IMG/VR virus record: IMGVR_UViG_3300045988_108242
Span: 1 to 50,729 of that record
Strand: one strand, 5' to 3'
DNA from: a virus
Length of the DNA stretch: 50,729 nt
Below the pieces are notes generated by a model that ran no database searches, had not been told where the DNA came from, and worked only from the letters and a program-made list of their open reading frames with translations. Within the stretch, counting starts at the first letter, position 1, and the number at the start of each line of letters is the position of its first letter. Positions 9,999-46,087 of the stretch are shown in pieces. Both the position numbers and the translations under genes were made by a program.

Positions 9999-10407
9999 TT
10001 ATATCACCAACCTTTTCAAATGTCAAGCACTCTGTAACAATTTTTTCATTTTCATCAAAATATTTTTTTCCTGCACAAATCTCTTTTAATTTCTCCCTAT
10101 CTTCTCTAACCTTCTTCATAAGTCTATCTTTTTTCTTAATATCTTTTGGGGATACAGTCTGCCCTTTTACATTCTTCTTTGCAACCTCAATAATTAGCTT
10201 TTTAAGACGTTTAAATTCTTTAAGGGTATTTTTATCATCTATCTGTACAAAATCCCTTGTATGGCATCTTACACAATCACAATACATAAGTTTGTAAAAA
10301 TTACCATATTCATCGTGTACGTCCTTTCTAATAAGGTTGCTAGAATCAACCTCAAAAACTTCTCCGCATTTTTTACATACTCTCTTAATTTCCATAGCTG
10401 TTCTCAC
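9982..10407 (-). CDS. Zinc-ribbon protein (CKKC...CDCVRC) with basic tail
   Basis: 141 aa with the same architecture as its downstream neighbour. Overlaps that neighbour by 17 nt. Confidence 0.6.
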   Translation of the reverse strand: MRTAMEIKRVCKKCGEVFEVDSSNLIRKDVHDEYGNFYKLMYCDCVRCHTRDFVQIDDKNTLKEFKRLKKLIIEVAKKNVKGQTVSPKDIKKKDRLMKKVREDREKLKEICAGKKYFDENEKIVTECLTFEKVGDIIESNL

Positions 10408-11423: not shown

Positions 11424-12981
11424 CCAACTTTGTTTGTGTTTCTATATCATCAATATTGTTTTGAACTTCACCTTCTGTTGTTTGTTTATCCAGTTCACTT
11501 TGTACTTGTGTATTCATGCTCATACTGTCGAACATATTCAATTCAACTGCAATCTGCATAAGTTCCTTCTCAATCTGTTCATCTGTTTTAAACTCTTCTT
11601 TACGCCACTTTTTAATATAGGACTTTCTACTTCGTGCATTAGCGGCTATCTCAGCAAGGTCTGAGTCTTTTTCTGTTTCTTCATCTTCCATCAATGCATA
11701 ATTTTCTACTACCTGTATGTTGTACTGTATTTCTGCAAGTGTTGGAATAACATACAATGTTGAAACAATATCTTTATTCAATTTAGCAAGGTCTAATATT
11801 GTTTCAACAATAAACTCTAATGCAGGACGCCATGCTTTCATCTTTTCATCACATCTAACTTGTAACGGATAATACAACGCTTTCAATGCTTTACCGCTTG
11901 TTATTGTTCCTGCCATTGTTTCTTCACTTATGTTTGGAACATCCACTTCGTTATACATAGCTGTTTTAATTCTTGTGAGCGTTTCTTTTACTGCTTCTGT
12001 ATGGTTCATTTGTGGTGCTAATGTTCCAACCATAGGAGACTTGTTATCAATATTTTGATTCGTTTGTAAATCCCAGTAAGCACCAGCACCACTTGGAAGA
12101 TTTTTTGTCGTGTTTGGACTCATATCTACAGTATATCGAATAGGGTTCATACCTTTTCTTTCACTGTCAATGTCACCGTTACTTAGTCTGCTATATCCTT
12201 CCTCATAGTATGCTAAACTTTCCATTTCAGACACACCACGTTTATCTTGCAATGTCCCATCGTTAAAAATAACAATTGCCGGAATATACTCTAATTCTGT
12301 TTTTATTTCTGCAATAAGCTCCTCTACTGGTTTACCAGAACCATTGTATAGTATAGAACTCATATATATTGCGTTTTCTCTTTCTTCATACCTGTTTACA
12401 AGGTATAATCTTTCACTGGTTGTTTTGCTTTCACTCACATTTTCAAAACTTATAAACTTTGTTAATCTATCAGAACCATATTCTGTTTCATAATAGAATT
12501 GCAAACTGTTATAAAAATGTGTTTGTATTCCATCTTCTTCCGAAAAATCAACTAAACACGCAACACGCTTACCGATAAAACAATCTTTTGCACTCTGTAA
12601 TAATGCTCTTGAAAAATTATTGTTTTTATTATTTAAAACCTTATCAACTAACTTTTGATACTCTTGTGCTTCTGCATTTGCTTGTTCTGTTACATCTATT
12701 GGTTGTACATAGAAATCTGGTGTTTGTGAAAACATAAATCTTGCTTCTTTGTCTATCAATGTTTTCGCAATCTTGAATTTAATGTTTGATGGAACATAAT
12801 CTCCGGCACTACCTTCTGTATAAAATTTAGCACCTTCTTTATAATCTATATAGTTCTGTTGTATTTGTAACAATTCTCTTGTATATATATTATATCCTGT
12901 TTTTATCTCATTTCTTAAAACAAAATAAGGAAAATTACATAACGCTGTAGTTACTTCTACTCCATATTGTTTACCTTTCAC
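11398..12981 (-). CDS. Portal protein (SPP1 gp6-like)
   Basis: 527 aa. The motif YKEGAKFYTEGSAGDYVPSNIKFKIAKTLIDKEARFMFSQTPDF is portal-like. It uses a GTG start 7 nt after AAAGGAG. Confidence 0.9.
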   Translation of the reverse strand: MKGKQYGVEVTTALCNFPYFVLRNEIKTGYNIYTRELLQIQQNYIDYKEGAKFYTEGSAGDYVPSNIKFKIAKTLIDKEARFMFSQTPDFYVQPIDVTEQANAEAQEYQKLVDKVLNNKNNNFSRALLQSAKDCFIGKRVACLVDFSEEDGIQTHFYNSLQFYYETEYGSDRLTKFISFENVSESKTTSERLYLVNRYEERENAIYMSSILYNGSGKPVEELIAEIKTELEYIPAIVIFNDGTLQDKRGVSEMESLAYYEEGYSRLSNGDIDSERKGMNPIRYTVDMSPNTTKNLPSGAGAYWDLQTNQNIDNKSPMVGTLAPQMNHTEAVKETLTRIKTAMYNEVDVPNISEETMAGTITSGKALKALYYPLQVRCDEKMKAWRPALEFIVETILDLAKLNKDIVSTLYVIPTLAEIQYNIQVVENYALMEDEETEKDSDLAEIAANARSRKSYIKKWRKEEFKTDEQIEKELMQIAVELNMFDSMSMNTQVQSELDKQTTEGEVQNNIDDIETQTKLGEQNGTEV

Positions 12982-13012: not shown

Positions 13013-13041
13013 ATTATATATTGTTATTTTATGTTTGTCAA
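13013..13041 (-). promoter_or_regulatory. Sigma-A-type promoter upstream of the portal gene (TTGACA-17-TATAAT)
   Basis: -35 at 13041..13036, -10 at 13018..13013, 17-nt spacer. Followed by the leader ...AACAACAAAAGAAAGGAG. Confidence 0.75.
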
Positions 13042-13184: not shown

Positions 13185-14189
13185 CTACTGAATGTATAAC
13201 TGGAACTTATCTATTGCTATTCCAAATTCTCCTGCATATCCATCCATACCACCACTTGTAAAGTTGTCTATCTGTTCACTGTAATATGCTTTACTTGCTA
13301 TCGGAGAAACTCTATAACGTGCCTGTTGGTATTCATACCCATCTGGTGTTATATAATATACTTCTACTGCATCTATTGTTCTTCCATCCCCTGCATATCC
13401 ATTGTTGAAATCATTTATATTACATCCTGTTACATATGGCAACCACCCAACACCTAGGACATGCACCCTGTATTTAACAGAGCCTTTATCTACTTTTATT
13501 GCAACACCTGTTATAGGTACTCCATCTCCTGCGCCTGCAAAACCATTGCAATTTACATCATTTTTGTTTGTTATAAAATCCCACCATCTGTTTCCATTTG
13601 TTTGTACTGCATATGTAGCATTTACTTGTCCTAGACTTTTGTTACGTGCTGTATTTGTTTCTACACTGTAGTTTGTTTTTATACTACTTACTGTACCGTT
13701 TATAATATCCCTTTTGAATGTATTCCAGATACTAGAATCTTTTCCACCAGTACCCCAACCATTCCATCCCGGGCACTGTTTTGTGCATACATCCCAATGC
13801 CGTACTACATTACTTGCCGGAATATTATATTTGTTCATAAGGTACTTTGTAAGTTCTACTACGTTCTTGTAAGTTGCTTCTGCAATAACTCCATTTGTAC
13901 TACACATTTCTATGTTAATACAATTATAGTTTGTTACTTTTCCAAAAAGATTATTGCTACCATAATTTACACCAACACCCCATGAGATGTTGTTATCTTC
14001 TACACACTGGTATATGCTGTTTTCATCAACAAAATAATGTGCGCTACCTCCTCTATATACATCACGGAAATAGTTCGCATTATTTTTAGCCGTATCTGTA
14101 TAATTGCCTGTGTAATGAATTACAATGTATCTTTTTGTATTTCCACCATTTTCAAAATTAACTTTTGTTAAGTCCCGTATGATATTCAT
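13185..14189 (-). CDS. Endolysin: N-acetylmuramoyl-L-alanine amidase (Amidase_2/PGRP) with C-terminal ChW-like wall-binding repeats
   Basis: 334 aa. The N-terminal pattern YIVIHYTGN..SAHYFVD..NIEMC..VVRHWDV..KQCP is the amidase_2 pattern. The C-terminal G.GW..YV...G..G.G..I.A repeats resemble clostridial ChW repeats. AAGGAGG lies upstream. Confidence 0.85.
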   Translation of the reverse strand: MNIIRDLTKVNFENGGNTKRYIVIHYTGNYTDTAKNNANYFRDVYRGGSAHYFVDENSIYQCVEDNNISWGVGVNYGSNNLFGKVTNYNCINIEMCSTNGVIAEATYKNVVELTKYLMNKYNIPASNVVRHWDVCTKQCPGWNGWGTGGKDSSIWNTFKRDIINGTVSSIKTNYSVETNTARNKSLGQVNATYAVQTNGNRWWDFITNKNDVNCNGFAGAGDGVPITGVAIKVDKGSVKYRVHVLGVGWLPYVTGCNINDFNNGYAGDGRTIDAVEVYYITPDGYEYQQARYRVSPIASKAYYSEQIDNFTSGGMDGYAGEFGIAIDKFQLYIQ

Positions 14190-14243
14190 TTGCCTTTAGA
14201 CCTCCTTATTTGCCAATTTAAGACATTTTAATTATTAGAACAA

Positions 14244-14477
14244 CTATTCCTCTGCTTCTACCTCTGAAATCCCTGCAATAGACGTAAGAACACTTACAAC
14301 ACCAGATATTACACTTGCAGAAAGCACCATTTTCCAGTCTACAGAACTAACTAATGTCGCAGAACTAATAACTCCTACAGCGGTTTGCGCCATTGTTTTA
14401 ATGGCTCTTATTCCTGCCGCTTTACACCACTTTACTGTATTCACATTCGGTTTAAATACACAATTCTTAAACATCAT
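14244..14477 (-). CDS. Holin (two TM segments, charged C-terminus)
   Basis: The track ORF 14244..14495 is trimmed to the ATG at 14477, which lies 5 nt after GGAGG. The pattern AAGIRAIKTMAQTAVGVI...VLSASVISGVVSVLTSIAG is holin-like, and the gene sits directly upstream of the amidase. Confidence 0.7.
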   Translation of the reverse strand: MMFKNCVFKPNVNTVKWCKAAGIRAIKTMAQTAVGVISSATLVSSVDWKMVLSASVISGVVSVLTSIAGISEVEAEE

Positions 14478-14799
14478 TTTTTCCTCCATTTCCATTTTGA
14501 ATCTTACATAATTTTAAATCATTTTTCACTTTCACAATTTCTAATTCGTGCCTGTCTAATACTTCCCACTGTTCTCTTTGCCCTTTCTTAACATGTTCTT
14601 TGTATTCTTCAATTTCTCTATTCTGTTTCTCTAATTTATCGTTCTGGTCTTTTATTTCTTTTGCAAGTTGTTCCACTTTTAATGTTAACTCTGTCATTGC
14701 TTTTGTGTTTTGGTTCAATGGTCTGTATATTGCTGTGAATATTCCGATTAAAGAACTTAACCCTATTACCACAATACCAATCATTTCCGCAGTTGTCAC
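14467..14799 (-). CDS. Membrane-anchored coiled-coil protein in the lysis cassette (XhlA-like position)
   Basis: 110 aa with an N-terminal TM segment (IGIVVIGLSSLIGIFTAI) followed by a coiled coil. Precedes the holin. Confidence 0.5.
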   Translation of the reverse strand: MTTAEMIGIVVIGLSSLIGIFTAIYRPLNQNTKAMTELTLKVEQLAKEIKDQNDKLEKQNREIEEYKEHVKKGQREQWEVLDRHELEIVKVKNDLKLCKIQNGNGGKNDV

Positions 14800-16903: not shown

Positions 16904-18262
16904 TTATCCTACCTTTGTATTTGCCTTATAATCCTTTAAATCGGCTACTGTATAATTGTTCAATGCATACCACAGGGCTGAAAGTACGTGGCTATCGATG
17001 TTAAATTCATCATATATTATATTACCTTGTTTATCTTTTGCATATGTTAAATCTTTTAACTCCCTTATAGAATTCTTACATTTTGGTGAACATACAATTT
17101 TGTGAAATCTCTTGACTTTCTTTGTCCCTGCAAGCCTACTACCGGGGAACTTTTTACAAGCATACATTGTAAATCCTTCCTGTCGATAATACTGTATATC
17201 TTTTGGAGATGCACTATCGGCAAATATTGGTTGGTTACATCTTTCTGCTCTTTCCTTTACTTTCTGCACACTGTCAAGCTTGCTGAATTTATCATCTGTT
17301 ATATGGTTTCTATACACTTCATCATAGATATATAATATTTTGTTTGTATCATCTACCGCACAACTTATCAATGCATTATAACTTGTTTCAAATCCAAAAT
17401 CCAAACCAAAGAAATGATAATGTGCTGGTATGCTGTTTACCGCATTTGCAAACTCTTTTGCGTTCTTTGCAACTGTAAATTTTGGTAGCACTCTCAAACC
17501 ACTTGCTCCAAACCTTCCCCACCTTGCGACAAGCCATAAATGCATATCGCTATTCTTTAGACTATCCAAACGTTTTATATAACTATCTGGCAAAAATGGA
17601 TTATCGTCCGGCAAACTATGATGATAATACACACCATTCTTTTTATTTACAAGTGTGCGCTTTTTGTATACCTCTTTTTCACTTTGTATTATATGTTCTT
17701 TTCCCTTTTCATCTGTATGTACAAAAAATGTATCATACACCCAGTTCTCTTTCCCGATAGGGTTTGTTGTCATTATGAAATGTAATGTTTTATTCGGTTC
17801 ACGAACACGCCCTAAAAGCTCTGTATATGCCGCAAATGTTATCTCACTACATTCTTCCATCCATACAATACTAACACCATGTACAGACTTAATCTTTTCT
17901 ACATTGTCCAATCCTTTGAATATTATCCTACTGCCATTAGGAAAACGTATCTCCATCGGACTTGCTATTGCTATTACTTCACCATTTGTACTGCTTGTGT
18001 ATCGTGCTTCTCTGGAAGATAAAATTCCTAAACCAGTTAGGATTTCTTTGAATAATGCAAAACAACTTTCACGTATTGTATCCTTTACCTGTCTTACTAC
18101 GAGTGCTGTTCTTTTCTCTTCCAACAATTTAAGTATAATCTTTAACGCTACATGATATGACTTACCAGAACCATACCCACCAAATAATAAATATTGTTCA
18201 TACTCCCAGTCTGTCAAAAAATTTGCAAAACGATTAGAAACATCAATGTTCAATTCTGACAT
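16904..18262 (-). CDS. terL: Terminase large subunit (PBSX/XtmB-like)
   Basis: 452 aa with Walker A (LLFGGYGSGKS) and a C-terminal nuclease region carrying conserved acidic residues. Confidence 0.9.
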   Translation of the reverse strand: MSELNIDVSNRFANFLTDWEYEQYLLFGGYGSGKSYHVALKIILKLLEEKRTALVVRQVKDTIRESCFALFKEILTGLGILSSREARYTSSTNGEVIAIASPMEIRFPNGSRIIFKGLDNVEKIKSVHGVSIVWMEECSEITFAAYTELLGRVREPNKTLHFIMTTNPIGKENWVYDTFFVHTDEKGKEHIIQSEKEVYKKRTLVNKKNGVYYHHSLPDDNPFLPDSYIKRLDSLKNSDMHLWLVARWGRFGASGLRVLPKFTVAKNAKEFANAVNSIPAHYHFFGLDFGFETSYNALISCAVDDTNKILYIYDEVYRNHITDDKFSKLDSVQKVKERAERCNQPIFADSASPKDIQYYRQEGFTMYACKKFPGSRLAGTKKVKRFHKIVCSPKCKNSIRELKDLTYAKDKQGNIIYDEFNIDSHVLSALWYALNNYTVADLKDYKANTKVG

Positions 18263-18940: not shown

Positions 18941-19025
18941 TTGTTTTGGTGGCTACTTTATTCACCACCATGTATCGGTTATAAGCAAACGTGTGTTTTA
19001 ATGACTTTAACACCTGTCTATCCTT

Positions 19026-19220
19026 TTAAAAGAAAATATGTATCCTTCCATCTAATGCTGTTATCATGTCTATTTTGTTTACGTCGTAACTCTTCAACTG
19101 TTTTATTGTCATCTTGTCTGCTTCATATTTTTCTCTATCGCTTGAATCAACAATAACAATATCTTCATAGTTATCATCAAACAACTTTTTAATTAAATCC
19201 ATCAAATTATTAATTACCAT
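19026..19220 (-). CDS. Hypothetical protein
   Basis: 64 aa, with GGAGG at 19235..19231 upstream of the ATG. Confidence 0.55.
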   Translation of the reverse strand: MVINNLMDLIKKLFDDNYEDIVIVDSSDREKYEADKMTIKQLKSYDVNKIDMITALDGRIHIFF

Positions 19221-19242
19221 ATTTTCACATCCTCCTATTTGT

Positions 19243-19386
19243 TTATAGTTCTATATCATCAATAGAGCCTTTATAGAATCTTTTTACCAACTCTGTAAAA
19301 TCAAAATAATTTATTCTACGTCTAAATGCTTCTCTTTCAGCTCTCTTATACTGACCTCTTCTTAACAATGATGCAACCTGTACCAT
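19243..19386 (-). CDS. Hypothetical small basic protein (47 aa, below the track cut-off)
   Basis: Hand-translated as MVQVASLLRRGQYKRAEREAFRRRINYFDFTELVKRFYKGSIDDIEL. GGAG lies 8 nt upstream of the ATG, and the ORF fills an otherwise empty gap. Confidence 0.5.
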   Translation of the reverse strand: MVQVASLLRRGQYKRAEREAFRRRINYFDFTELVKRFYKGSIDDIEL

Positions 19387-19441
19387 AACTTCCACTCCTT
19401 CTCTGCTGTGTTTGTTTCCTTTGTTTCTTTCTGATTATATA

Positions 19442-19759
19442 TCAACATAAGTTCTCATAAATGTCAATATGTTTTTGTAAATTTCTTTTTAATTCTTCAT
19501 GTTCATATTGTTCTGCAATTTCCTTTGATACTTTACAACCGCTATGTTTATAGCATTTGTCTATATCGTCATAGTATGTTCTACCTTTACACCATCTTGT
19601 GTATGTGTATTCTGACATAAATAATATTATATCTCCATTTGAATCCATTGCTTGCTTTATAATTCCAGTGTATATTATATGCGCTCTATTTACAGTTACA
19701 TACTCAATATAATCTTGTTTTGCAAGACAATACGTGCTTGATACTCTAACTTTAACCAT
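19442..19759 (-). CDS. Hypothetical protein
   Basis: 105 aa, overlapping the upstream gene by 8 nt. Confidence 0.55.
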   Translation of the reverse strand: MVKVRVSSTYCLAKQDYIEYVTVNRAHIIYTGIIKQAMDSNGDIILFMSEYTYTRWCKGRTYYDDIDKCYKHSGCKVSKEIAEQYEHEELKRNLQKHIDIYENLC

Positions 19760-20204
19760 ACTCTTCTACTACCTCCAACTTCTTCAAATCCTCAATAAGC
19801 CAAGGTTCTTTGTCTGACCATTTTACCATCGGTAAATTCAAATTAAAAAATTCTAAGCTTTTGTTTGATTCAATCCCTCCACTTTCCCAACAGTCAATAA
19901 GTTTATGTGGTCTTATGCAATAAATGAACAAAAATCCATCCATATCTCTGGCTATATATTTTATTCCTTCGCCAATACACTCCAAAAATGTTCTATCCTT
20001 CTTGCTTATAACTACCTTTTCAATGTACTCTGATTCTGCCCATTCTCTTAGTTTCTTTCTACAACTACCATCTCGAAACAAACAAAGATTGCATTCAGTA
20101 TTAACACAAGTAGTGATGCGACCACTTTTCTTTATTACCGCAATATGACCTCCCTCACAAACAATATCAACAATCTCTTTTGCGTACTTCTCTTTGTTCT
20201 TCAT
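19752..20204 (-). CDS. Hypothetical Cys-containing protein
   Basis: The track ORF starts at a TTG (20237). The ATG at 20204 lies 8 nt after GGAG, and a promoter lies just upstream. Confidence 0.6.
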   Translation of the reverse strand: MKNKEKYAKEIVDIVCEGGHIAVIKKSGRITTCVNTECNLCLFRDGSCRKKLREWAESEYIEKVVISKKDRTFLECIGEGIKYIARDMDGFLFIYCIRPHKLIDCWESGGIESNKSLEFFNLNLPMVKWSDKEPWLIEDLKKLEVVEEYG

Positions 20205-20249
20205 ATTTATATCTCCTTCATTTTTGCTCTCTATCAACTTTGTAACTTT

Positions 20250-20277
20250 ATTATAACATATATCTTTGTTTTATCAA
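20250..20277 (-). promoter_or_regulatory. Sigma-A-type promoter (TTGATA-16-TGTTATAAT)
   Basis: -35 at 20277..20272, -10 at 20255..20250. Confidence 0.6.
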
Positions 20278-20299
20278 TAATTATTTTAAGCTATTTTGT

Positions 20300-20452
20300 T
20301 TATTTCTTACACTTTACAACCTTTGCTTTTATATTTGGTGTCAAAAATTTTTTAAAATCCTCAATCCACTCACATGCATCTTTCTTGTTCTTAAATTTTA
20401 CAGTTTCAACATTTGCTTTTACTTTCCCATTATTTAATTCTATTGTATACAT
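20300..20452 (-). CDS. Hypothetical small protein (50 aa, below the track cut-off)
   Basis: Hand-translated as MYTIELNNGKVKANVETVKFKNKKDACEWIEDFKKFLTPNIKAKVVKCKK, with AAAAGGAG upstream. Confidence 0.5.
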   Translation of the reverse strand: MYTIELNNGKVKANVETVKFKNKKDACEWIEDFKKFLTPNIKAKVVKCKK

Positions 20453-20474
20453 ATTATTCTCCTTTTCATTTTGT

Positions 20475-20618
20475 TTATTTCAATGTGTCAACTACTGGTT
20501 TAATAATATCATATTCAATAAATACACTTGCCATAACTTCTGCTGTTTCTTTATCAATACCTTGTTTGATTAAATCTTGTTTATATGCTCTCTTTGCTTC
20601 TCTCTGCCCTTTTGTCAT
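20475..20618 (-). CDS. Hypothetical small protein (47 aa, below the track cut-off)
   Basis: Hand-translated as MTKGQREAKRAYKQDLIKQGIDKETAEVMASVFIEYDIIKPVVDTLK. GGAGAGGA lies upstream and a consensus promoter at 20662..20690. Confidence 0.5.
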   Translation of the reverse strand: MTKGQREAKRAYKQDLIKQGIDKETAEVMASVFIEYDIIKPVVDTLK

Positions 20619-20661
20619 TATTTTATTTCCTCTCCTTTTGTTTTCTTTAACTTATGTATTT

Positions 20662-20690
20662 ATTATAACATCTATGTTTTGTTTTGTCAA
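20662..20690 (-). promoter_or_regulatory. Sigma-A-type promoter (TTGACA-17-TGTTATAAT)
   Basis: -35 at 20690..20685, -10 at 20667..20662. Confidence 0.75.
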
Positions 20691-20693
20691 CAG

Positions 20694-20846
20694 TTATTTT
20701 AAATATTTTTTAGCAAACTCTTCATTGCTCATTGTTTTCATATCATAAACATATTCAATAACATCTACACTATTCATTCCCAATCCTTCTACAAGTTCTC
20801 TAACCATTCCTGTTAAATTATTGTTTTTAATAAACTCTTTCTTCAT
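20694..20846 (-). CDS. Hypothetical small protein
   Basis: The track ORF 20694..20903 is trimmed to the ATG at 20846, which lies 8 nt after GGAG. The longer form would include its own promoter. Confidence 0.55.
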   Translation of the reverse strand: MKKEFIKNNNLTGMVRELVEGLGMNSVDVIEYVYDMKTMSNEEFAKKYLK

Positions 20847-20888
20847 GTTCTTAACTCCTTCTCGTTTTGTTTTCTTCTTTATGATTCT

Positions 20889-20916
20889 ATTATAACATAA
20901 CATAGCAGAAAGTCAA
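20889..20916 (-). promoter_or_regulatory. Sigma-A-type promoter (TTGACT-16-TGTTATAAT)
   Basis: -35 at 20916..20911, -10 at 20894..20889. Confidence 0.65.
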
Positions 20917-20937
20917 CAGTTATTTGTAAATATTTTA

Positions 20938-20973
20938 TAATAAAATAAAAAGGACAGAAACAATGTTCTGTCC
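20938..20973 (-). terminator. Rho-independent terminator after the GT-A-like gene
   Basis: Perfect 8-bp stem GGACAGAA/TTCTGTCC (20952..20959 / 20966..20973) with a 6-nt loop, followed on the minus strand by TTTTTATTTTATT. Confidence 0.8.
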
Positions 20974-20981
20974 CCTTCCCT

Positions 20982-21791
20982 TTAGATTCCCTTAATAGGT
21001 ATCTTGATAATCGGATTGTAGTCAATGTACTTTCTGTTCTTTCTTGACCTTCCTTTGTTTGATGTATCCAACCTTACAATATTACTACCCCACTTCTGTC
21101 TTAACAATTCAAACTGTTCTTTCTCACGTTCCATATTACGATACATAACACAACCGCCCTTTTGTTCTGACTGTCTACAAACATAATGGTATTTGTTTAA
21201 CCTCAATGCCCCTCTATACAGGTTCATGTTCTGTAAGGTCATGTCATAATCTTCTTTTAACGGAAGTCTTTCATCATATCGAAGTTCATTCCCTTTCAAG
21301 AAACACTGAAAAGGTCCACCTATGTAGGATGTAGTGCTAAATGGAGAATACTGCCGATATGACATTGTATCACTGTTACAATTCAATCCCCAGAATTTAA
21401 AACCCCAATCATTGCACAATAAGGAATAACGATATAAGAAGTCTAGTAGTTCGTCTGATTTTACTTTTACTTTCTCATACGCATAGGTTCCATCCTCTGA
21501 CATTTCAAAGTGTTCTATGGCTCGTAAATCATCATCAATCAATAACACAATGTCTGCACCGTTTTCAAACTCTGTATCAAGGATATAATTACGAACTCTG
21601 CACAGATTTCCCTGTACACCTTTCGGACACTTCACAATATTTTCTGTATGTTTCGGGTTGAAATCCAGATATGCTTCGTACTCTTCTGGTGCAACATAAA
21701 CTTTACAGAAAGGAATATAACTTAATGTCTCCACCTTATAACGCTTATAAGACGGACAAGCAACAATGATTTCTTTTCCCTTATACTTCAT
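20982..21791 (-). CDS. Putative GT-A-fold glycosyltransferase-like protein (DxD motif)
   Basis: 269 aa. The N-terminal strand IIVACPSYKR and the motif ADIVLLIDDDL are GT-A-like. Overlaps the ParB-like gene by 11 nt. The family assignment is unverified. Confidence 0.4.
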   Translation of the reverse strand: MKYKGKEIIVACPSYKRYKVETLSYIPFCKVYVAPEEYEAYLDFNPKHTENIVKCPKGVQGNLCRVRNYILDTEFENGADIVLLIDDDLRAIEHFEMSEDGTYAYEKVKVKSDELLDFLYRYSLLCNDWGFKFWGLNCNSDTMSYRQYSPFSTTSYIGGPFQCFLKGNELRYDERLPLKEDYDMTLQNMNLYRGALRLNKYHYVCRQSEQKGGCVMYRNMEREKEQFELLRQKWGSNIVRLDTSNKGRSRKNRKYIDYNPIIKIPIKGI

Positions 21792-22425
21792 TACCCTGCA
21801 CCCTTTCTAACGCTTTCTGTCCGTCTAGCACCCTTCCCACTCCTGCTCGCATACCGAATGACTTCTTGTTCCCTTCCTTCTTTGTTGGATACGCCTTTGC
21901 TTTCTCGATTCCAAACAATCCCATAGCATTGAACCAATCAATCTTATTGTTGAACTTCAACACAATGTAATTGTTCTCTTCATTCAATATTTCTGTGAAT
22001 GGTACATCTGGTTCAACTTCTATTGTTTCATCTTCCAATGCATCAATACTAAATCCAAACACTTCCATGTCAATGTCTGATTTCAGAAGTTCACTGATTT
22101 CTTCGTTAATCAATGTTTCATCATAACTGGATTCTGCTGTTTTGTTTTCAATCAATCGCCAAGCCTTGATTTGTTCATCTGTCATATCATCCAGACAGAT
22201 TGTAGGCACTTGTGTCAGTCCTGCTTTCTTTGCCGCAAGGATTCTTCCATGACCTTCAACCACATAACCATCTTTATCAATTGCTACTGCTCTGTGTTCA
22301 AAGAATCCAAACTGCTTAATACTGTTCATAATTCTTTCAACCTGTTCTTTCGGATGTTTCTTTGCATTCTTCTTATAGGGTTTTAAATCCTTTATCTGCC
22401 TATATACTATGTTTAGTTTCTGCAT
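21781..22425 (-). CDS. ParB/Srx-fold (ParB-like nuclease domain) protein
   Basis: 214 aa. The pattern LKPYKKNAKKHPKEQVERIMNSIKQFGF...VVEGHGRILAAKKAGLTQVP matches the ParB N-terminal domain often fused to phage DNA methyltransferases. No methyltransferase part is present here. Confidence 0.75.
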   Translation of the reverse strand: MQKLNIVYRQIKDLKPYKKNAKKHPKEQVERIMNSIKQFGFFEHRAVAIDKDGYVVEGHGRILAAKKAGLTQVPTICLDDMTDEQIKAWRLIENKTAESSYDETLINEEISELLKSDIDMEVFGFSIDALEDETIEVEPDVPFTEILNEENNYIVLKFNNKIDWFNAMGLFGIEKAKAYPTKKEGNKKSFGMRAGVGRVLDGQKALERVQGNEV

Positions 22426-22492
22426 TTGTTTCTCCTTCCTGTTTTGTTCTATGTTTTGTTAATGGTAAACTATAATATATTTATATACTTTT

Positions 22493-22678
22493 TTAGCACA
22501 TATAATATCCTTTTTCTTTTACCATATTATAATCTCGTTCTGTTAATAATATTGTTACTTGTTTTCTTATATCTCCACAGCAATCTGTATCACATATAAG
22601 CTGATATACTAACATATCTTTATATTTTATACGCTTTACACATGTTATGTTATATACATACTTTTCTACAAGGTTCAT
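22493..22678 (-). CDS. Hypothetical Cys-rich small protein
   Basis: 61 aa. Confidence 0.5.
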   Translation of the reverse strand: MNLVEKYVYNITCVKRIKYKDMLVYQLICDTDCCGDIRKQVTILLTERDYNMVKEKGYYMC

Positions 22679-22696
22679 ACTCTACACTCCTTTTGT

Positions 22697-23041
22697 TTAT
22701 TCTTGTATTAACCTTCGTTCTGTCCTTTTATATTTCTCTTGCTTTATTTGTTCTATCTGATTTTGCCTTTCCACACCTAACAGATACTTTATTTGTTCCA
22801 GACATATTTCTACGTCTGCAATTTCTTCTGTTATACTGTACATTACTGTTGGTTCTTTTGTTTTGCAAGTTTTATCTTTTGATTTTATTCTCTGGTATTT
22901 GCAGAACGCCTGTGTAAGCTCTGCCATCTCTTCTGTACATTGTACCATTCTATTTTCCAGTGTAAACTTTTCTGCCTGTTTTTGAATATCATATAATATT
23001 CCCATATTTATTTCTGTCCTCTCCTTCTTAGATTCATCCAT
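22697..23041 (-). CDS. MazG-like all-alpha NTP pyrophosphohydrolase (putative)
   Basis: 114 aa. The EEMAELTQA...ITEEIADVEICLEQI pattern fits EExxE...ExxD. The alternative start ATG at 23005 avoids the overlap with micro-ORF 23008..23160. Confidence 0.55.
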   Translation of the reverse strand: MDESKKERTEINMGILYDIQKQAEKFTLENRMVQCTEEMAELTQAFCKYQRIKSKDKTCKTKEPTVMYSITEEIADVEICLEQIKYLLGVERQNQIEQIKQEKYKRTERRLIQE

Positions 23042-23160
23042 GTTATCACATTTTGAACTATCTTGTGTTGTAATGCTTGTTCATATGTTATGTTATGCTT
23101 TGTTGCATATTTAGTAACATAATCATGGATTGCTTCTTGGTCTTGTTTCATTGTTCCCAT
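23008..23160 (-). CDS. Hypothetical small protein (50 aa, below the track cut-off)
   Basis: Hand-translated as MGTMKQDQEAIHDYVTKYATKHNITYEQALQHKIVQNVITWMNLRRRGQK. Its ATG abuts the upstream stop (TAAATG). Confidence 0.4.
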   Translation of the reverse strand: MGTMKQDQEAIHDYVTKYATKHNITYEQALQHKIVQNVITWMNLRRRGQK

Positions 23161-23463
23161 TTATTCACCACTTTCTGTATCTACTATTATTTCTAAACCA
23201 TTATTGTTTTGTTTTAACTTTACAACTCCATATGCTTCTAATATTGTTTCTTTTGTATTACTGTTTGGCTTATATCCTAGCACTTTTACATTTGCTTTTC
23301 TTTGATTCTGTATATGTATTGTAAAAGTATTTTCTTTTGTATTTTTGTTTGTTTGTGTTTTATATTTATTTACTTGGTATATATTTCCTATACATCCAAC
23401 ACCTATAAATATAATTCCTAACAGAATCAACATAAGAGATATTCTATTTAATTTCCTGTCCAT
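23161..23463 (-). CDS. Membrane-anchored small protein
   Basis: 100 aa with an N-terminal TM segment (ISLMLILLGIIFIGVGCIG). It has its own consensus promoter and an AAGGAG. Confidence 0.6.
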   Translation of the reverse strand: MDRKLNRISLMLILLGIIFIGVGCIGNIYQVNKYKTQTNKNTKENTFTIHIQNQRKANVKVLGYKPNSNTKETILEAYGVVKLKQNNNGLEIIVDTESGE

Positions 23464-23484
23464 TTTATCTCCTTTATAATATAT

Positions 23485-23513
23485 ATTATATAATATAACA
23501 AAATATATGTCAA
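23485..23513 (-). promoter_or_regulatory. Sigma-A-type promoter (TTGACA-17-TATAAT)
   Basis: -35 at 23513..23508, -10 at 23490..23485. Confidence 0.75.
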
Positions 23514-23698: not shown

Positions 23699-24211
23699 TT
23701 ACTCATAGATTTCACCGCCCCACTCTTCATCTTCGCTTTCTTCCATCCATTCTTCTGCATTTTCTGCTTTCCATATTTCCTCTTCATCTTGCGCTGTAGG
23801 TGTATAACTTTCTCCCTGCGTTACAAGGTTTATAGTTACATTGTTCTGTATCTTTCCTGTTTTCTTGAACATATCCAGTTTATCCATCATTTGCGTTATC
23901 TCTTTTATAGCACCAACGTCCCCTGTTAAACCTTTTTGGAATAATGCAACCATAAGTAAGCTCTGGTTTGTTAATTCTTCATCTGTAAAACCAAAATTTT
24001 TTAAAATCTGTTTTTTCTTATCACTGTTTGTTTTCATTTCCAATAACTGCCGCATACAGTTTTGTAAAGCCATGTTACGTTCTTTCTTTTTTCTTCTTGC
24101 TTCTACACCTTTCATTGCTATCTCATGACGTTCTTCCGGTGTTCTGTCACGCATATTTATAAGCATACCATCTTCATACGGCTTTGGCACTTGTCCTTTT
24201 TTTAATCCCAT
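23699..24211 (-). CDS. Putative terminase small subunit (DUF5681-like)
   Basis: 170 aa. The N-terminal GLKKGQ, the basic helix region and LFQKGLTGDVGAIKEI resemble small proteins found next to terminases. It has an acidic-Trp tail. It lies 5.4 kb from terL, so the assignment is tentative. Confidence 0.45.
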   Translation of the reverse strand: MGLKKGQVPKPYEDGMLINMRDRTPEERHEIAMKGVEARRKKKERNMALQNCMRQLLEMKTNSDKKKQILKNFGFTDEELTNQSLLMVALFQKGLTGDVGAIKEITQMMDKLDMFKKTGKIQNNVTINLVTQGESYTPTAQDEEEIWKAENAEEWMEESEDEEWGGEIYE

Positions 24212-26476: not shown

Positions 26477-27226
26477 TTAGATTTCCCAATCATCATCGTC
26501 CTCTTCTTCTGTATCTTCCTCGCCTTTTGCATCATCAGCTTTCAGCATATCTGCATATACATCTGGCTTCTGTTTTGGTTTTACTTTCAGACCTCTTTCT
26601 TTGCACATTTTGAAAAGCTCCATTGCGGTTTTTCCTACATACGGGTCTGTTTCTTCTTCGTCATCTTCTCCCCAGTCATCGTCCTCTTCTTCTACTGGTT
26701 CTTCTTTTTTAACAGTTTTCTTTGATGTTGTTTTCTTTTCTTCCTTTGCTTTTCCTTTTCCCTTAGATGGTTCAATCTCACCGTTATCAAGTTTCTCTAA
26801 CAGCTTGATAAGTTCATCTTTCTTGCGGCTCTTGCAAAGTGACGAAATACCACGTTTACAACATAATGCATAAAGGTCTTTTGCTGTCATAGACTCATAG
26901 GTGCTTTCTTCCTCTTCATCATCTGACCATTCATCTTCCTGTTCTTCTGCATCCTGTTTTTTTGCTTTACCTTTCTTTGGTACTTCCTCTTCCTGTGGAA
27001 TTTCCATTTCAGGTTCTTCTGTTTCCATCTCTTTAAGTCCTGTTTCAACAACCCTTGCTGTTACTTTAGCAGGAAGTGCTTTTAAAATGTCTAACAGATA
27101 AACACTATCTGCAAGTGCTACTGTTCTTGCAAAAAGCGGAAATCTACTTCCAATCTCTGCAATGTTTTCCTTGTTGTTTCCATAAATTTCTTTTGCCGCT
27201 TCATATGCGCTCCAATTTTTTGCCAT
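26477..27226 (-). CDS. Acidic protein with two HeH/SAP motifs and an acidic-Trp C-terminus
   Basis: 249 aa. Motifs: MTAKDLYALCCKRGISSLCKSRKKDELIKLLEK and TAMELFKMCKERGLKVKPKQKPDVYADMLK. Ends in DDDDWEI. Confidence 0.65.
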   Translation of the reverse strand: MAKNWSAYEAAKEIYGNNKENIAEIGSRFPLFARTVALADSVYLLDILKALPAKVTARVVETGLKEMETEEPEMEIPQEEEVPKKGKAKKQDAEEQEDEWSDDEEEESTYESMTAKDLYALCCKRGISSLCKSRKKDELIKLLEKLDNGEIEPSKGKGKAKEEKKTTSKKTVKKEEPVEEEDDDWGEDDEEETDPYVGKTAMELFKMCKERGLKVKPKQKPDVYADMLKADDAKGEEDTEEEDDDDWEI

Positions 27227-30977: not shown

Positions 30978-31013
30978 ATTATATACTATAGGGTTGAACT
31001 TGTCAACCCTATA
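30978..31013 (-). promoter_or_regulatory. Sigma-A-type promoter (TTGACA-17-TATAAT) with the -35 inside an 11-bp perfect hairpin
   Basis: -35 at 31006..31001, -10 at 30983..30978. Inverted repeat TATAGGGTTGA/TCAACCCTATA at 30987..30997 / 31003..31013. Confidence 0.7.
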
Positions 31014-32292: not shown

Positions 32293-32481
32293 TCAATTTA
32301 ACAATCCTTCTTCTATACACTCTTCAAAATGGTTACAACCCCTACAACCATGTAATCTGCAATTGTTACAAGAATCTTTAATACAATATCCTGTTCCTGC
32401 AAATTTACATATAAAATCATTACAATAATATTTTTCAGAATTTGTAGCTTCATCATTCAATTTATCAACAATATTAAACAT
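32293..32481 (-). CDS. Small Cys-rich protein
   Basis: 62 aa with 10 Cys residues. Has a TAATG overlap with the upstream gene. Confidence 0.6.
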   Translation of the reverse strand: MFNIVDKLNDEATNSEKYYCNDFICKFAGTGYCIKDSCNNCRLHGCRGCNHFEECIEEGLLN

Positions 32482-33569
32482 TAGAAATTTTCCTCCTTTA
32501 GCTTCTGCATACTAGGATGTATAAAACCATAACAAGCTATACAGTATGCATCTGCTATATCATCGTTTATTTTACAACGTGTTTTGACTCCATTTATTTT
32601 TACATTAACTACACCCTTTGTTCCCCTACCTTTATATGGAATAACAATTTTTTTTAGCAGACCTTTTGTTTTAAGATATTGTATTGTAAGATATTTATTT
32701 GGATTTATTCCATAACTATTCTCCTGTGCTTTTGTTGTTCCAACTATTTGTGTTTTCCATGAATTTGTATTAACACTATACATCTTTATATTATACTGTG
32801 ATAATACATCATTTATGCTTGCCAACAATCCTGCTGTTGACATTATATAATTTTCACTTAAATGTCCTTGTGAAAATAACCTGATTCTTTCAACAATACA
32901 CTTTGTATTTCTTTTATCTAATCTATATTCTCTAACAATTCTATGTATTGTTTTTCTCATTTCTTTTCGTTTATCACTATTATTATAACAGTTTTTAAAA
33001 TCAACGCTTATAAATTCTATCGGAATTTTATCACACATTAAACAAATGCCTGTTCTGTTATAACTCTCGTCAATACCTAAAATATATAGTTCATCTGTTA
33101 CATATTTAAATATACAATTTTTATGATGTTTCTCTTCACCTCTACAGCAAGCTGCAACATGACCTTTATTAAAACCATCATAAACTGTGCTATTAACACT
33201 ATTATAGAATGTTCTCTTATGAGTTATCTCATTTTCACATATTAAATGCTTTTCCATAGAATAGCAGGTATTATTCCACGCCGTACACCATTCAAGATTA
33301 TTAACATTATTATTTTTTGGGTTTTCATCTATATGATTTACTGTATCATAAAAATATGGATTGTCTATAAACGTTTCTGCAACTAATCTATGTACTTGAT
33401 ATTTCTTTGTTTTTCCTTCTTTGCTCAACTTTACTAACAATCTTCCTTTTTTAGTTTCTTCCGGTTTCAATAATTTATTTTTTTTAATATTTCTTACATT
33501 TCCAAATGTACTAACATCATAAATACCTTCGTATCCTTTTATATCTTTCCATCTTTCATTTTCTACCAT
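32481..33569 (-). CDS. HNH homing endonuclease (NUMOD4 + HNH_3 + HTH) fused in frame to a RuvC-like Holliday junction resolvase
   Basis: 362 aa. Residues 1-165 (ERWKDIKGYEGIYDVSTFGNVRN...HRLVAETFIDNP...VNHIDENPKNNNVNNLEW) form a complete HNH_3-type endonuclease. From residue ~170 (YILGIDESYNRTG...IVERIR...NDDIADAYCIA) the sequence has the RuvC-fold D/E/D motifs. There is no stop and no ATG/GTG/TTG at the junction. Confidence 0.75.
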   Translation of the reverse strand: MVENERWKDIKGYEGIYDVSTFGNVRNIKKNKLLKPEETKKGRLLVKLSKEGKTKKYQVHRLVAETFIDNPYFYDTVNHIDENPKNNNVNNLEWCTAWNNTCYSMEKHLICENEITHKRTFYNSVNSTVYDGFNKGHVAACCRGEEKHHKNCIFKYVTDELYILGIDESYNRTGICLMCDKIPIEFISVDFKNCYNNSDKRKEMRKTIHRIVREYRLDKRNTKCIVERIRLFSQGHLSENYIMSTAGLLASINDVLSQYNIKMYSVNTNSWKTQIVGTTKAQENSYGINPNKYLTIQYLKTKGLLKKIVIPYKGRGTKGVVNVKINGVKTRCKINDDIADAYCIACYGFIHPSMQKLKEENF

Positions 33570-44706: not shown

Positions 44707-44737
44707 GTTTTTGTTCTCCTTATTTTTGTTTTTCTTT

Positions 44738-46078: not shown

Positions 46079-46087
46079 AGAACTATT

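What the first reader, a model, noticed from the sequence alone, without database searches (positions are those of the whole stretch)
20938..23513. A self-contained unit (promoter to terminator) encoding MazG-like, ParB/Srx-like and GT-A-like proteins: a candidate nucleic-acid or surface modification module
Seen in sequence. The consensus promoter at 23513..23485 and the strong terminator at 20973..20938 bracket six genes. In order they are: a membrane protein; a 50-aa ORF; a MazG-like NTP-PPase (EEMAEL...EEIADVE); a 61-aa Cys protein; a ParB-fold protein (PYKKNAKKHP...EGHGRILAAKKAG) without the usual methyltransferase partner domain; and a 269-aa protein with a GT-A-like DxD signature (IIVACPSYKR...VLLIDDDL) that overlaps the ParB-like gene by 11 nt.
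Established knowledge: all-alpha NTP-PPases (such as T4 dCTPase) and glycosyltransferases cooperate in phage DNA hypermodification. ParB-like domains are recurrent partners of DNA-modifying enzymes in comparative-genomic surveys.
Inference: this could be a non-canonical DNA modification or anti-restriction module.
Caveat: I see no hydroxymethylase/thymidylate-synthase homologue, so the GT-like protein may instead target virion proteins or wall polymers, or may not be a glycosyltransferase at all.
Basis: partly seen in the sequence, partly recalled or inferred. Interest (0 to 1): 0.65.

Follow-up and report, generated by a model that had tools for sequence, protein, structure and literature searches.

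The report
ParB-coupled orphan phage DNA glycosyltransferase cassette
This phage carries a tightly coupled gene pair, a ParB-like nucleotide-binding protein with a previously undescribed tail domain and a sugar-transferring enzyme of the family that decorates phage DNA. The pair occupies a slot where related phages carry DNA methylases, yet the genome has no recognisable enzyme to make the hydroxylated base such sugar transferases normally need.

Summary
A 12/12 sigma-70 promoter (23513..23485) and an intrinsic terminator (20978..20947) bracket six minus-strand ORFs, and the ParB-like and GT genes overlap by 11 nt.

The six genes are not one functional module. Only the last two are conserved together.
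- The 269-aa protein is a TAGT/JGT-family GT-A glycosyltransferase. It scores above the Pfam PF20691 cut-off, gives an AF2 model with pLDDT 87, and has invariant R..DDD..EDY motifs.
- Its partner is a ParB N-domain plus a ~75-aa C-terminal domain (CTD) with no sequence or fold match. The CTD is better conserved than the N-domain.
- Every GT-selected locus with upstream sequence has ParB-CTD (58 loci). All 80 CTD-selected loci have the GT.
- Split three-gene versions exist.
- The pair sits just upstream of terminase genes of several types.

In close relatives the same slot holds ParB_N followed by a variable effector gene, or fused to one: N6/N4 DNA methylases, a second TAGT subfamily, an ABC-type ATPase, or a possible radical-SAM protein. 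MazG and the small ORFs are local passengers.

The complete 50.7-kb genome has no recognisable thymidylate-synthase homologue, TET/JBP dioxygenase or C5-methylase.

Best reading: a ParB-assisted DNA glycosyltransferase whose acceptor is unknown. I rate it a new variant of a known kind. It is testable in cultured Clostridium phages and, for a related version, Microbacterium phages.

The parts
23485..23513 (-). Sigma-70-type consensus promoter (TTGACA-17-TATAAT) that starts the local six-gene transcription unit.
   Evidence: 12/12 match; 13 near-perfect sites, all on the minus strand, against 1.13 expected. (sequence).
23161..23463 (-). 100-aa protein with an N-terminal hydrophobic (transmembrane-like) segment. 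Local passenger, not part of the conserved module.
   Evidence: A homologue was found only in L019 among GT-selected loci. It is 70% identical in the nearest relatives.
23008..23160 (-). 50-aa ORF of unknown function. Conserved in close relatives only.
22697..23041 (-). MazG-like all-alpha NTP pyrophosphohydrolase (EEMAEL / EEIADVE motifs). The real start is probably Met13 at 23005. Variable neighbour, not a conserved partner of the GT.
   Evidence: phrog_2245, 2.4e-18. No Pfam hit above threshold. Present in about a third of close loci and in no distant locus.
22493..22678 (-). 61-aa Cys-rich ORF of unknown function.
   Evidence: phrog_3458, 1.6e-4. Sporadic in relatives.
22111..22425 (-). 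ParB/Srx-fold N-terminal nucleotide-binding domain (aa 1 to about 105) of the 214-aa partner protein. It keeps the box motifs KNAKK (N20), GHGR (G58, R61) and ENK (N94). There is no HTH.
   Evidence: PF02195 at residues 11-94. PADLOC MTase_II N-terminus, 4.7e-22. phrog_498, 2.4e-36. Conservation. The same domain is joined to other effectors in relatives.
21784..22020 (-). Previously undescribed C-terminal domain (CTD, aa about 136-214; FTE(I/V)LxEExNYIVLxFxNxxDW...GVGRVLxG). It is the best-conserved part of the partner protein and the likely GT-binding adaptor.
   Evidence: invariant columns. (no PDB sequence match). (pLDDT 68 when modelled alone, no fold match); 771 clusters, always C-terminal in the 150 listed; encoded as a separate gene overlapping the GT; the GT is always downstream.
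20982..21791 (-). 269-aa TAGT/JGT-family GT-A glycosyltransferase with invariant R65/R67, D86-D88, E180-D181-Y182. It has a basic C-terminal tail ending in the conserved peptide DYNPIIKIPIKG. It overlaps the ParB gene by 11 nt.
20947..20978 (-). Intrinsic terminator (13-pair stem plus T-run) that ends the unit.
19000..22430 (-). Hypervariable cassette island between the 170-aa TerS-like gene region and TerL. It is replaced wholesale in the nearest relatives.
   Evidence: flanks are 95-100% identical in L218/L154/L180, while the ParB C-terminus, the effector and the downstream small ORFs are unrelated; only 20868-22390 is shared at 90% nt identity with the Clostridium phages CS266P2/P4.

Best explanation
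The functional unit is the last two genes of the transcript. Together they form a two-component DNA glycosyltransferase.

Shown:
- The genes are co-transcribed from a host-type promoter.
- They are probably translationally coupled, through overlapping stop and start codons that are conserved in relatives.
- The GT is an intact member of the TAGT/JGT family.
- The partner is a ParB N-domain plus a family-specific CTD.
- The two are obligately linked, and the pair lies next to the packaging genes.
- In sister phages the same ParB N-domain is attached to DNA methylases or followed by them.

Inferred:
- The CTD docks the GT.
- The ParB N-domain binds a nucleotide triphosphate and gives the enzyme productive access to double-stranded phage DNA. 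ParB176 does this for the thymine dioxygenase 5mYOX176, and the ParB domain presumably does the same in ParB-methylase fusions.
- The GT transfers a sugar from a nucleotide-sugar, using the DDD metal site, onto phage DNA late in infection, before or during packaging. This would protect the DNA from host nucleases.

Open: the acceptor. It is either a hydroxylated base made by an enzyme that current profiles do not recognise, or a canonical DNA position.
For: GT identity:
- PF20691 above its cut-off and phrog_842, 3.4e-15.
- AF2 pLDDT 87.2.
- GT-A hits in the PDB.
- TM 0.65-0.78 to viral TAGT-domain proteins, including a T-even beta-glucosyl-HMC-alpha-glucosyltransferase.
- R..DDD..EDY motifs invariant in 48 homologues. 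These are the motifs the NEB group describes for phage GT-A DNA glycosyltransferases and JGT.

Obligate pairing:
- ParB is upstream in all 58 GT-selected loci that include upstream sequence, with overlaps of -4, -11 or -17 nt.
- The GT is downstream in all 80 CTD-selected loci.
- Split ParB_N / CTD / GT versions exist.
- No long fusions or other architectures appear among the top 150 of 771 CTD clusters.

DNA context:
- The ParB N-domain is most similar to that of ParB-methylase fusions.
- The same slot in close relatives carries ParB_N fused to N6_N4 methylases or followed by them, or followed by a second TAGT subfamily.
- In L055 the pair is followed by two DNA methylases and then the terminase.
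- The pair lies directly upstream of at least three terminase types.

Precedent:
- ParB-like proteins activate a phage DNA dioxygenase on dsDNA. GTs, ParBs and terminases are the commonest neighbours of 5mYOX.
- Aravind's proposal that ParB directs modification during packaging.
Against: - No known source of an acceptor hydroxyl. The complete genome (55-bp terminal overlap) has no ThyS homologue, TET/JBP or C5-methylase at Pfam/PHROG sensitivity. No such family was listed among genes neighbouring related loci.
- The NEB survey itself considered GT contigs without 5mYOX or ThyS less likely to modify DNA.
- One TAGT-family member, GREB1, glycosylates a protein.
- The CTD-GT interaction is not shown. 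The CTD model is poor, and the mirror-tree analysis gave no signal among divergent pairs.
- ParB nucleotide binding is inferred from conserved motifs only. In ParB176, mutating those residues did not abolish activation.
- There is no experimental DNA-composition data for any phage carrying the module.
Confidence: 0.55

Rival explanations
1. Classical pathway with a hidden first step. The GT glycosylates 5hmU, 5hmC or 5hoC as other TAGT enzymes do. The hydroxylated base would be made by a phage protein too divergent for Pfam/PHROG, or by a host enzyme. This is a sub-case of the DNA-glycosylation reading and differs only in the acceptor.
For: - All characterised DNA glycosyltransferases use a pre-existing hydroxyl.
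- The 5mYOX paper reports thousands of 5mYOX-like contigs that lack the PF12851 annotation.
- The window has many unannotated ORFs, a DUF3310 nucleotide-kinase-like protein and its own Pol III alpha.
Against: - No unannotated window ORF of 200-300 aa gives even a weak dioxygenase or ThyS signal.
- No such family was listed among about 240 neighbour gene clusters of related loci. Those lists are truncated, so single weak hits could be hidden.
- The module moves as a two-gene cassette between otherwise near-identical phages. That is hard to reconcile with dependence on a second phage gene elsewhere.
- The other identified effectors at the slot, the methylases, act on canonical DNA.
Confidence: 0.3
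2. Protein glycosylation. The GT modifies a phage or host protein, for example the ParB partner, a packaging or virion protein, or a host defence protein. The ParB protein would serve as a nucleotide-regulated adaptor.
For: - GREB1, a TAGT-family member, O-GlcNAcylates a protein.
- From my own knowledge, not tested here: mycobacteriophage glycosyltransferases glycosylate capsid and tail proteins.
- Microbacterium cluster EC phages combine the ParB-GT pair with a UDP-glucose dehydrogenase and a second annotated glycosyltransferase.
- The module lies next to morphogenesis genes.
Against: - Allelic replacement by DNA methylases at the same slot, with the same ParB N-domain.
- The closest structural relatives are phage TAGT proteins, including the T-even DNA enzyme.
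- No conserved candidate acceptor protein travels with the pair.
Confidence: 0.1
3. Cell-envelope glycosylation of the TarP type. The GT would decorate wall teichoic acid or another polymer to block superinfection.
For: - In the NEB paper the top PDB matches of phage GT-A enzymes were to TarP.
- The fold matches generic GT-A enzymes.
- A small membrane protein is encoded in the same transcript.
Against: - Obligate coupling to a ParB-fold protein and the terminase-proximal position have no rationale in this model.
- The membrane protein is not conserved with the pair.
- No integrase or other Pfam sign of lysogeny in the window.
- The module is nearly absent from bacterial genomes: 6 hits in 185,579 species representatives.
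Confidence: 0.03
4. Small-molecule or nucleotide glycosylation. The GT would act on a free nucleoside, nucleotide or signalling molecule, for example as a counter-defence.
For: - The best PDB match is AvpGT, solved with the nucleoside Ara-A.
- ParB folds bind NTPs.
- MazG-like and nucleotide-kinase-like genes are in the genome.
Against: - TM is only about 0.5 to AvpGT, against 0.7-0.78 to phage TAGT proteins.
- MazG and the kinase are not conserved with the pair.
- The slot logic argues against it.
Confidence: 0.02

Closest known systems
TAGT / JGT family of GT-A DNA glycosyltransferases (Pfam PF20691): phage 5mYOX-associated GT-A enzymes, the T2/T6 beta-glucosyl-HMC-alpha-glucosyltransferase, and the trypanosome base-J glucosyltransferase
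   Same: - Pfam and PHROG membership.
- GT-A fold.
- Invariant R..DDD..EDY active-site motifs.
- Size of about 250-290 aa.
- Phage origin.
   Different: - A divergent branch: 5e-9 to PF20691, against 7e-37 for the second TAGT type found at the same slot. The two types are barely alignable to each other.
- No TET/JBP, ThyS homologue or C5-methylase in the genome or listed among neighbouring genes.
- Obligately paired with a ParB-CTD protein.
- Has a basic, conserved C-terminal peptide.
ParB-dependent phage thymine dioxygenases (5mYOX176 / ParB176; O'Toole et al., PNAS 2026, PMC13229309)
   Same: - A short ParB homologue with a nucleotide-binding N-domain and a C-terminal domain, no HTH, encoded next to a post-replicative DNA-modifying enzyme.
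- GTs and terminases are frequent neighbours.
   Different: - The partner enzyme here is a glycosyltransferase, not a dioxygenase, and no dioxygenase is present.
- The CTD has no detectable relation to the ParB dimerisation domain.
- Sequences of the published ParBs were not available, so they could not be compared.
ParB-N6/N4 DNA methyltransferase fusions of phages and prophages
   Same: - Best sequence matches of the window ParB N-domain (PADLOC MTase_II 4.7e-22, phrog_498 2.4e-36).
- They occupy the same genomic slot in sister phages, with 60-75% identical N-domains.
- Terminase-proximal position.
   Different: - The methylase domain is replaced by the CTD plus a separate GT gene.
- The chemistry is glycosyl transfer, not methyl transfer.
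Canonical ParB/Spo0J/Noc partition proteins
   Same: The ParB/Srx N-terminal fold and box motifs.
   Different: - Below the TIGR00180 cut-off (29.6 against 58.45 bits).
- No HTH and no ParB dimerisation domain.
- Box II is G-H/N-x-R rather than GERR.
- No ParA detected in the window's Pfam/PHROG scans.
T4-type pre-replicative hypermodification (dCTPase + dCMP hydroxymethylase + dNMP kinase + GTs)
   Same: A MazG-like NTP pyrophosphohydrolase and a GT lie in one transcript. A nucleotide-kinase-like protein is encoded elsewhere.
   Different: - No ThyS-family hydroxymethylase or hydroxylase.
- MazG is not conserved with the GT.
- The GT is GT-A/TAGT with a ParB partner, which points to a post-replicative mode.

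Membership tests
TAGT (PF20691) / JGT-like DNA glycosyltransferases | Match to the family profile above the curated threshold | tested here: met
   36.8 bits against a cut-off of 27.5, residues 32-213 covering profile positions 33-205 of 205. phrog_842, 3.4e-15. Precomputed PF20691 on most homologues.
TAGT (PF20691) / JGT-like DNA glycosyltransferases | GT-A fold | tested here: met
   AF2 pLDDT 87.2, pTM 0.87. Foldseek PDB hits are GT-A enzymes at E of about 1e-6. BFVD TAGT-domain proteins at TM 0.65-0.78, E down to 9e-19.
TAGT (PF20691) / JGT-like DNA glycosyltransferases | R...DDD...EDY/F active-site motifs (as defined in bioRxiv 10.1101/2023.12.21.572611) | tested here: met
   R65/R67, D86-D87-D88 and E180/Y182 are invariant and D181 nearly invariant in 48 homologues. 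Motif definition.
TAGT (PF20691) / JGT-like DNA glycosyltransferases | Genomic association with an enzyme that makes a hydroxylated pyrimidine (TET/JBP 5mYOX or a ThyS homologue) | tested here: not met
   None in the complete 50.7-kb genome. None listed among neighbour genes of related loci. Sensitivity is limited to Pfam/PHROG profiles, and the family lists are truncated.
TAGT (PF20691) / JGT-like DNA glycosyltransferases | Sugar transfer to a base in DNA | not testable with these tools
   Needs nucleoside LC-MS or an in vitro assay.
5mYOX-associated ParB activators | ParB nucleotide-binding N-domain, no HTH DNA-binding domain | tested here: met
   The only significant Pfam match is PF02195, at residues 11-94. 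No HTH or ParB dimerisation-domain hit. N20, G58, R61 and N94 are conserved.
5mYOX-associated ParB activators | C-terminal dimerisation domain related to that of partition ParBs | tested here: inconclusive
   The CTD has no Pfam, PDB-sequence or fold match. The model is poor.
5mYOX-associated ParB activators | Cognate 5mYOX gene in the neighbourhood | tested here: not met
ParB-DNA methyltransferase fusions | ParB N-domain of the methylase-associated type | tested here: met
   PADLOC PDLC03229, 4.7e-22, over profile positions 14-144 of 436. phrog_498, 2.4e-36.
ParB-DNA methyltransferase fusions | SAM-dependent N6/N4 methyltransferase domain | tested here: not met
   No methylase domain in the 214-aa protein. 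It is present in the sister-phage alleles.
Canonical ParB/Spo0J partition proteins | TIGR00180 equivalence, an HTH, and a ParA partner | tested here: not met
   29.6 bits against a cut-off of 58.45. No HTH. No ParA found in the window's Pfam/PHROG scans.
MazG / all-alpha NTP pyrophosphohydrolase (the 114-aa ORF) | Profile match and EExxE / ExxD metal-binding motifs | tested here: met
   phrog_2245, 2.4e-18. EEMAEL and EEIADVE are in the sequence. No Pfam MazG hit.

The most novel reading that the evidence does not exclude
The ParB-CTD/GT pair glycosylates canonical DNA directly, without any hydroxymethyl or hydroxy precursor. Possible targets are an exocyclic or ring nitrogen or oxygen of a normal base, or the backbone. 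That would be a new chemical class of DNA modification. ParB_N-plus-X would then be a general plug-in system in which one NTP-binding adaptor serves interchangeable DNA-modifying effectors: methylases, two GT types, an ABC ATPase, a possible radical-SAM protein and an unassigned protein.
Probability: 0.15. Interest if true: 0.9.

Novelty: new variant of a known kind. Interest (0 to 1): 0.62.

Why it matters
About two thirds of phage GT-A/GT-B contigs found by the NEB survey lack any known base-hydroxylating partner and were set aside as unlikely DNA modifiers. This locus shows that one large branch of those orphans is obligately tied to a ParB-fold partner. That branch comprises at least 1,500 GT clusters at 90% identity and 771 CTD clusters at 50% identity. 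It is also interchangeable with ParB-methylases at a fixed slot next to the terminase.

Two consequences follow.
- It turns the question of what orphan phage glycosyltransferases do into a concrete two-gene experiment, and cultured phages are available. Clostridium phages CS266P2/P4 carry the module, and so does Streptococcus prophage Javan291. Microbacterium cluster EC phages such as Jayden and Quhwah carry a related version.
- It extends the recently shown ParB dependence of a DNA dioxygenase to a second enzyme class. This supports ParB_N as a general loader or activator for post-replicative DNA modification.

If the acceptor proves to be a canonical base, it would be a new kind of DNA modification, relevant to restriction and CRISPR evasion and to enzyme tools.

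Tried and rejected
- Six-gene module with MazG: rejected. MazG and the small ORFs are not conserved with the pair.
- Search for a hidden hydroxylase: rejected at profile sensitivity. I ran Pfam on all window ORFs as concatenated pseudo-proteins, PHROGs on the replication region, and a permissive Pfam pass on ten unannotated mid-size ORFs. Nothing resembled ThyS or a 2OG dioxygenase.
- Neighbourhood Pfam surveys of related loci listed no TET_JBP or thymidylate synthase. Only the 25 most frequent families are shown, so single weak hits could be hidden.
- CTD identity: no result from Pfam, a PDB profile search, AF2 of the CTD alone (pLDDT 68) or Foldseek (no hit below E=1).
- Mirror-tree co-variation of GT, CTD and ParB_N: correlations reflect shared phylogeny and there is no signal among divergent pairs. 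Not used as evidence.
- CTD homology in Microbacterium ParBs: the full-length hhalign probability is 99.2%, but CTD-only is not significant (E=0.056; hmmsearch E=0.02). Left as inconclusive.
- A ParB+GT complex prediction was not attempted. The tool returns no inter-chain confidence and would refuse chimeric sequences.
- My guess that the 251-aa effector in L183 is DpdA-like rests on a remembered motif only. It has no Pfam or PDB hit.
- No literature on the Clostridium phages was found.
- Sequences of the published 5mYOX-associated ParBs were not held.

Full report
**1. The window**

The 50,729-base window starts and ends with the same 55 bases. It is therefore a complete circular assembly of about 50.67 kb. 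It is AT-rich, with strongly negative GC skew throughout. All credible genes lie on the minus strand.

Pfam and PHROG scans give a siphovirus-like layout:
- TerL at 16904-18262.
- Holin and amidase at 13185-14495.
- Portal-sized ORF at 11398-12981.
- Major capsid at 7540-8574.
- Tape measure at 1896-4556.
- A tail-fibre-like protein carrying Listeria-Bacteroides repeat domains (48296-49270) near the other end of the window.
- A replication block with primase, Pol III alpha, RecA, a Cas4-like exonuclease, RNase H, resolvases and HNH enzymes.

**2. The observation**

- The promoter at 23513..23485 matches TTGACA-17-TATAAT 12/12.
- Such sites are not chance. There are 13 with at most one mismatch, all on the coding strand, against 1.13 expected.
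- The terminator at 20978..20947 has a 13-pair stem and a T-run.
- The six ORFs, their lengths, the quoted motifs and the 11-nt ParB/GT overlap are correct.

**3. What the proteins are**

The 269-aa protein:
- It scores above the curated threshold of Pfam PF20691, the TET-associated glycosyltransferase family.
- It matches phrog_842, annotated beta-glucosyl-HMC-alpha-glucosyltransferase.
- An AF2 model built on 48 homologues is confident, with pLDDT 87.2.
- The model is a GT-A fold. The best solved matches are AvpGT and GnT-I.
- Against predicted viral structures it matches TAGT-domain phage proteins at TM 0.65-0.78, including a T-even second glucosyltransferase.
- R65/R67, D86-88 and E180/Y182 are invariant and D181 nearly so. 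These are the R..DDD..EDY motifs reported for phage GT-A DNA glycosyltransferases and the trypanosome base-J enzyme.

The 214-aa protein:
- It has a ParB N-terminal domain.
- The best matches of that domain are the N-termini of ParB-methylase fusions.
- It falls below the partition-ParB threshold.

The 114-aa protein is MazG-like by PHROG and by motif.

**4. What is conserved**

Only window 20868-22390 (ParB+GT) is shared at 90% nucleotide identity with cultured phages, namely Clostridium phages CS266P2 and CS266P4.

In 62 GT-centred loci (58 from the viral scan), a ParB homologue lies directly upstream in every case with upstream sequence. Stop and start codons overlap by 4, 11 or 17 nt.
- MazG is present in about a third of the close relatives and in no distant one.
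- The 61-aa ORF, 50-aa ORF and membrane protein are rarer still.
- Gene clustering shows only ParB and GT as universal.

The alignment of the partners shows that the most conserved part is not the ParB domain. It is a C-terminal stretch of about 75 residues, FTEVLxEEHNYIVLYFDNxVDWLQA...GVGRVLxG. Identity to the window ranks GT > CTD > ParB_N.

This CTD:
- Has no Pfam or PDB sequence match.
- Folds poorly on its own and has no fold match.
- Defines 771 clusters at 50% identity among 1.84 billion representatives. In the 150 best hits listed it always sits at the C-terminus, the proteins are mostly about 200-235 aa, and none is a long fusion.

Searching viral contigs with the CTD returns 80 loci. 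All have the GT immediately downstream and ParB_N upstream.

In some phages ParB_N, CTD and GT are three separate genes, with the CTD gene overlapping the GT. The conserved unit is therefore ParB_N + CTD + GT.

**5. Position and the cassette slot**

The pair lies directly upstream of the terminase genes in phages with Terminase_3, Terminase_6N and GpA-type large subunits. In one case it lies between TerL and the portal.

Among phages selected by TerL similarity, 21 carry ParB-CTD-GT. About 20 others carry the same ParB N-domain at the same position with a different C-terminus and a different overlapping effector:
- N6_N4 DNA methylases, either fused or separate.
- A second, more canonical TAGT (PF20691, 7e-37) with a 246-aa ParB.
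- An ABC-type ATPase.
- A weak radical-SAM match.
- An unassigned 251-aa protein.

The nearest relative has TerL 98-100%, the 170-aa protein 99% and MazG 96% identical. It carries the ABC-ATPase cassette instead. The swap is therefore recent, and the variable island is about 19,000-22,430 in the window. In L055 the pair is followed by two DNA methylases.

**6. The missing partner**

I found no thymidylate-synthase homologue, TET/JBP dioxygenase or C5-methylase in the complete genome. None was listed in surveys of neighbours of related loci.

All characterised routes to glycosylated phage DNA need such an enzyme.

One caveat applies. The 5mYOX authors report many 5mYOX-like sequences that Pfam misses.

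**7. Interpretation**

Four lines of evidence make a ParB-assisted DNA glycosyltransferase the best reading:
- The family membership of the GT.
- The methylase-type ParB domain.
- The allelic series with DNA methylases.
- The terminase-proximal position.

This parallels the demonstrated ParB activation of a phage thymine dioxygenase on dsDNA. It also fits the older proposal that ParB directs modification during packaging.

The CTD is inferred to be the GT-specific adaptor. Supporting observations:
- It is the best-conserved segment of the partner.
- Its gene always abuts the GT.
- Each alternative effector comes with its own C-terminal extension.
- The GT ends in a basic tail (pI 11.1) with a conserved terminal peptide.

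The acceptor is unknown. It may be a hidden hydroxylated base. Alternatively, since the methylases at the slot act on canonical DNA and the two-gene cassette moves on its own, it may be a canonical position.

Protein, wall-polymer and small-molecule targets are less likely but not excluded.

**8. Distribution and test systems**

- The GT branch has at least 1,500 clusters at 90% identity, mostly on gut-metagenome phage contigs of 45-53 kb.
- It is almost absent from bacterial genomes: 6 of 185,579 species representatives, in Bacillota and one Bacteroides.
- The cultured phages that carry it are CS266P2/P4 and Streptococcus prophage Javan291. In Javan291 the partner is annotated 'DNA modification methylase'.
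- Microbacterium cluster EC phages carry a related form:
  - The GT has hhalign probability 98.2% to the window family.
  - The ParB aligns at full length with 99.2% probability, but the CTD part is not significant on its own.
  - The ParB and GT genes overlap by 4 nt in phage Jayden.
  - A UDP-glucose dehydrogenase gene follows the pair.
- No study of these genes was found.

**9. Verdict**

The real entity is a two-gene (three-domain) ParB-CTD/TAGT cassette in a hypervariable ParB-plus-effector slot. It is a new variant of known kinds, namely TAGT DNA glycosyltransferases and ParB-dependent DNA modification. The open question of its acceptor can be tested directly.

Noticed in passing
window 33574-34350 (-): A 258-aa protein matches only the N-terminal half of gamma-class N6-adenine methylases (PF02384 positions 21-140; HsdM-like; motif I DPTCGAGAT). 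It ends before the NPPY/F catalytic motif. It belongs to a well-populated PHROG of unknown function (phrog_5696, 1e-79). It could be a SAM-binding or HsdM-mimicking protein rather than a methylase.
   Followed up: partly
window 32481-33569 (-): A 362-aa protein combines an N-terminal NUMOD4+HNH_3 homing-endonuclease module with a C-terminal RuvC-like resolvase region (phrog_159). It lies directly downstream of the truncated methylase-like gene.
   Followed up: no
window, whole (e.g. 9998-10026, 13013-13041, 20662-20690, 30978-31006, 41126-41154, 44738-44766, 45129-45157, 46051-46079): There are nine perfect and four one-mismatch TTGACA-N17-TATAAT promoters, all on the coding strand, against 1.13 expected. 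The phage seems to rely on host sigma-A promoters throughout, including inside the structural region.
   Followed up: partly
window 1-55 and 50675-50729: Exact 55-bp terminal repeat. The window is a complete circular assembly, cut inside the tail module.
   Followed up: yes
window 23699-24211 (-): A 170-aa protein (phrog_2412; weak DUF5681). In distant phages its homologue sits between the GT and TerL, the place of a small terminase subunit. Here it is separated from TerL by about 5.4 kb of cassettes with their own promoters and terminators.
   Followed up: partly
L154:1919-3111, L218:3081-4273, L195, L159:3981-5569, L183:4717-6014: In sister phages the ParB N-domain is paired, with overlapping stop and start codons, with an ABC-type ATPase (226 aa), a possible radical-SAM protein (345 aa, CxxxCxxC) or an unassigned 251-aa protein with a DSGAFTF motif. 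Each ParB has its own short C-terminal extension. These are uncharacterised ParB-plus-effector pairs.
   Followed up: partly
window 13185-14495 (-): The lysis cassette (r1t-type holin and Amidase_2 endolysin) lies between the terminase and the portal-sized ORF rather than after the tail genes. L154 shows the same order, with the holin and amidase homologues following TerL.
   Followed up: no
window 26477-27226, 41403-42197, 44020-44766 (-): Three otherwise unrelated early proteins carry similar short SAP-like helices (e.g. ELYKLCKERDI / DLYALCCKRGI / ELKQMCRERKM). In two of the three (26477-27226 and 41403-42197) these are embedded in highly acidic D/E-W repeats. One of the three looks like an SSB-type protein with an acidic tail.
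   Followed up: no
L149:2353-7054 (Microbacterium phage Quhwah gp86-gp92), L219 (phage Jayden): Cluster EC Microbacterium phages place a ParB-like gene and a GT of the window's subfamily next to a UDP-glucose-dehydrogenase-like gene, a second annotated glycosyltransferase, a sigma factor and an AAA-ATPase. This cluster lies about 2.4 kb from the genome end that joins the small terminase gene.
   Followed up: partly
window 37731-38369 and 38366-41092 (-): A DUF3310 protein, matching PHROG families annotated 'nucleotide kinase', overlaps the start of a phage-encoded Pol III alpha (PHP + NTPase + finger + HHH) gene. An own replicative polymerase together with a nucleotide-kinase-like gene is compatible with non-canonical nucleotide metabolism, but it is no evidence for it.
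   Followed up: no
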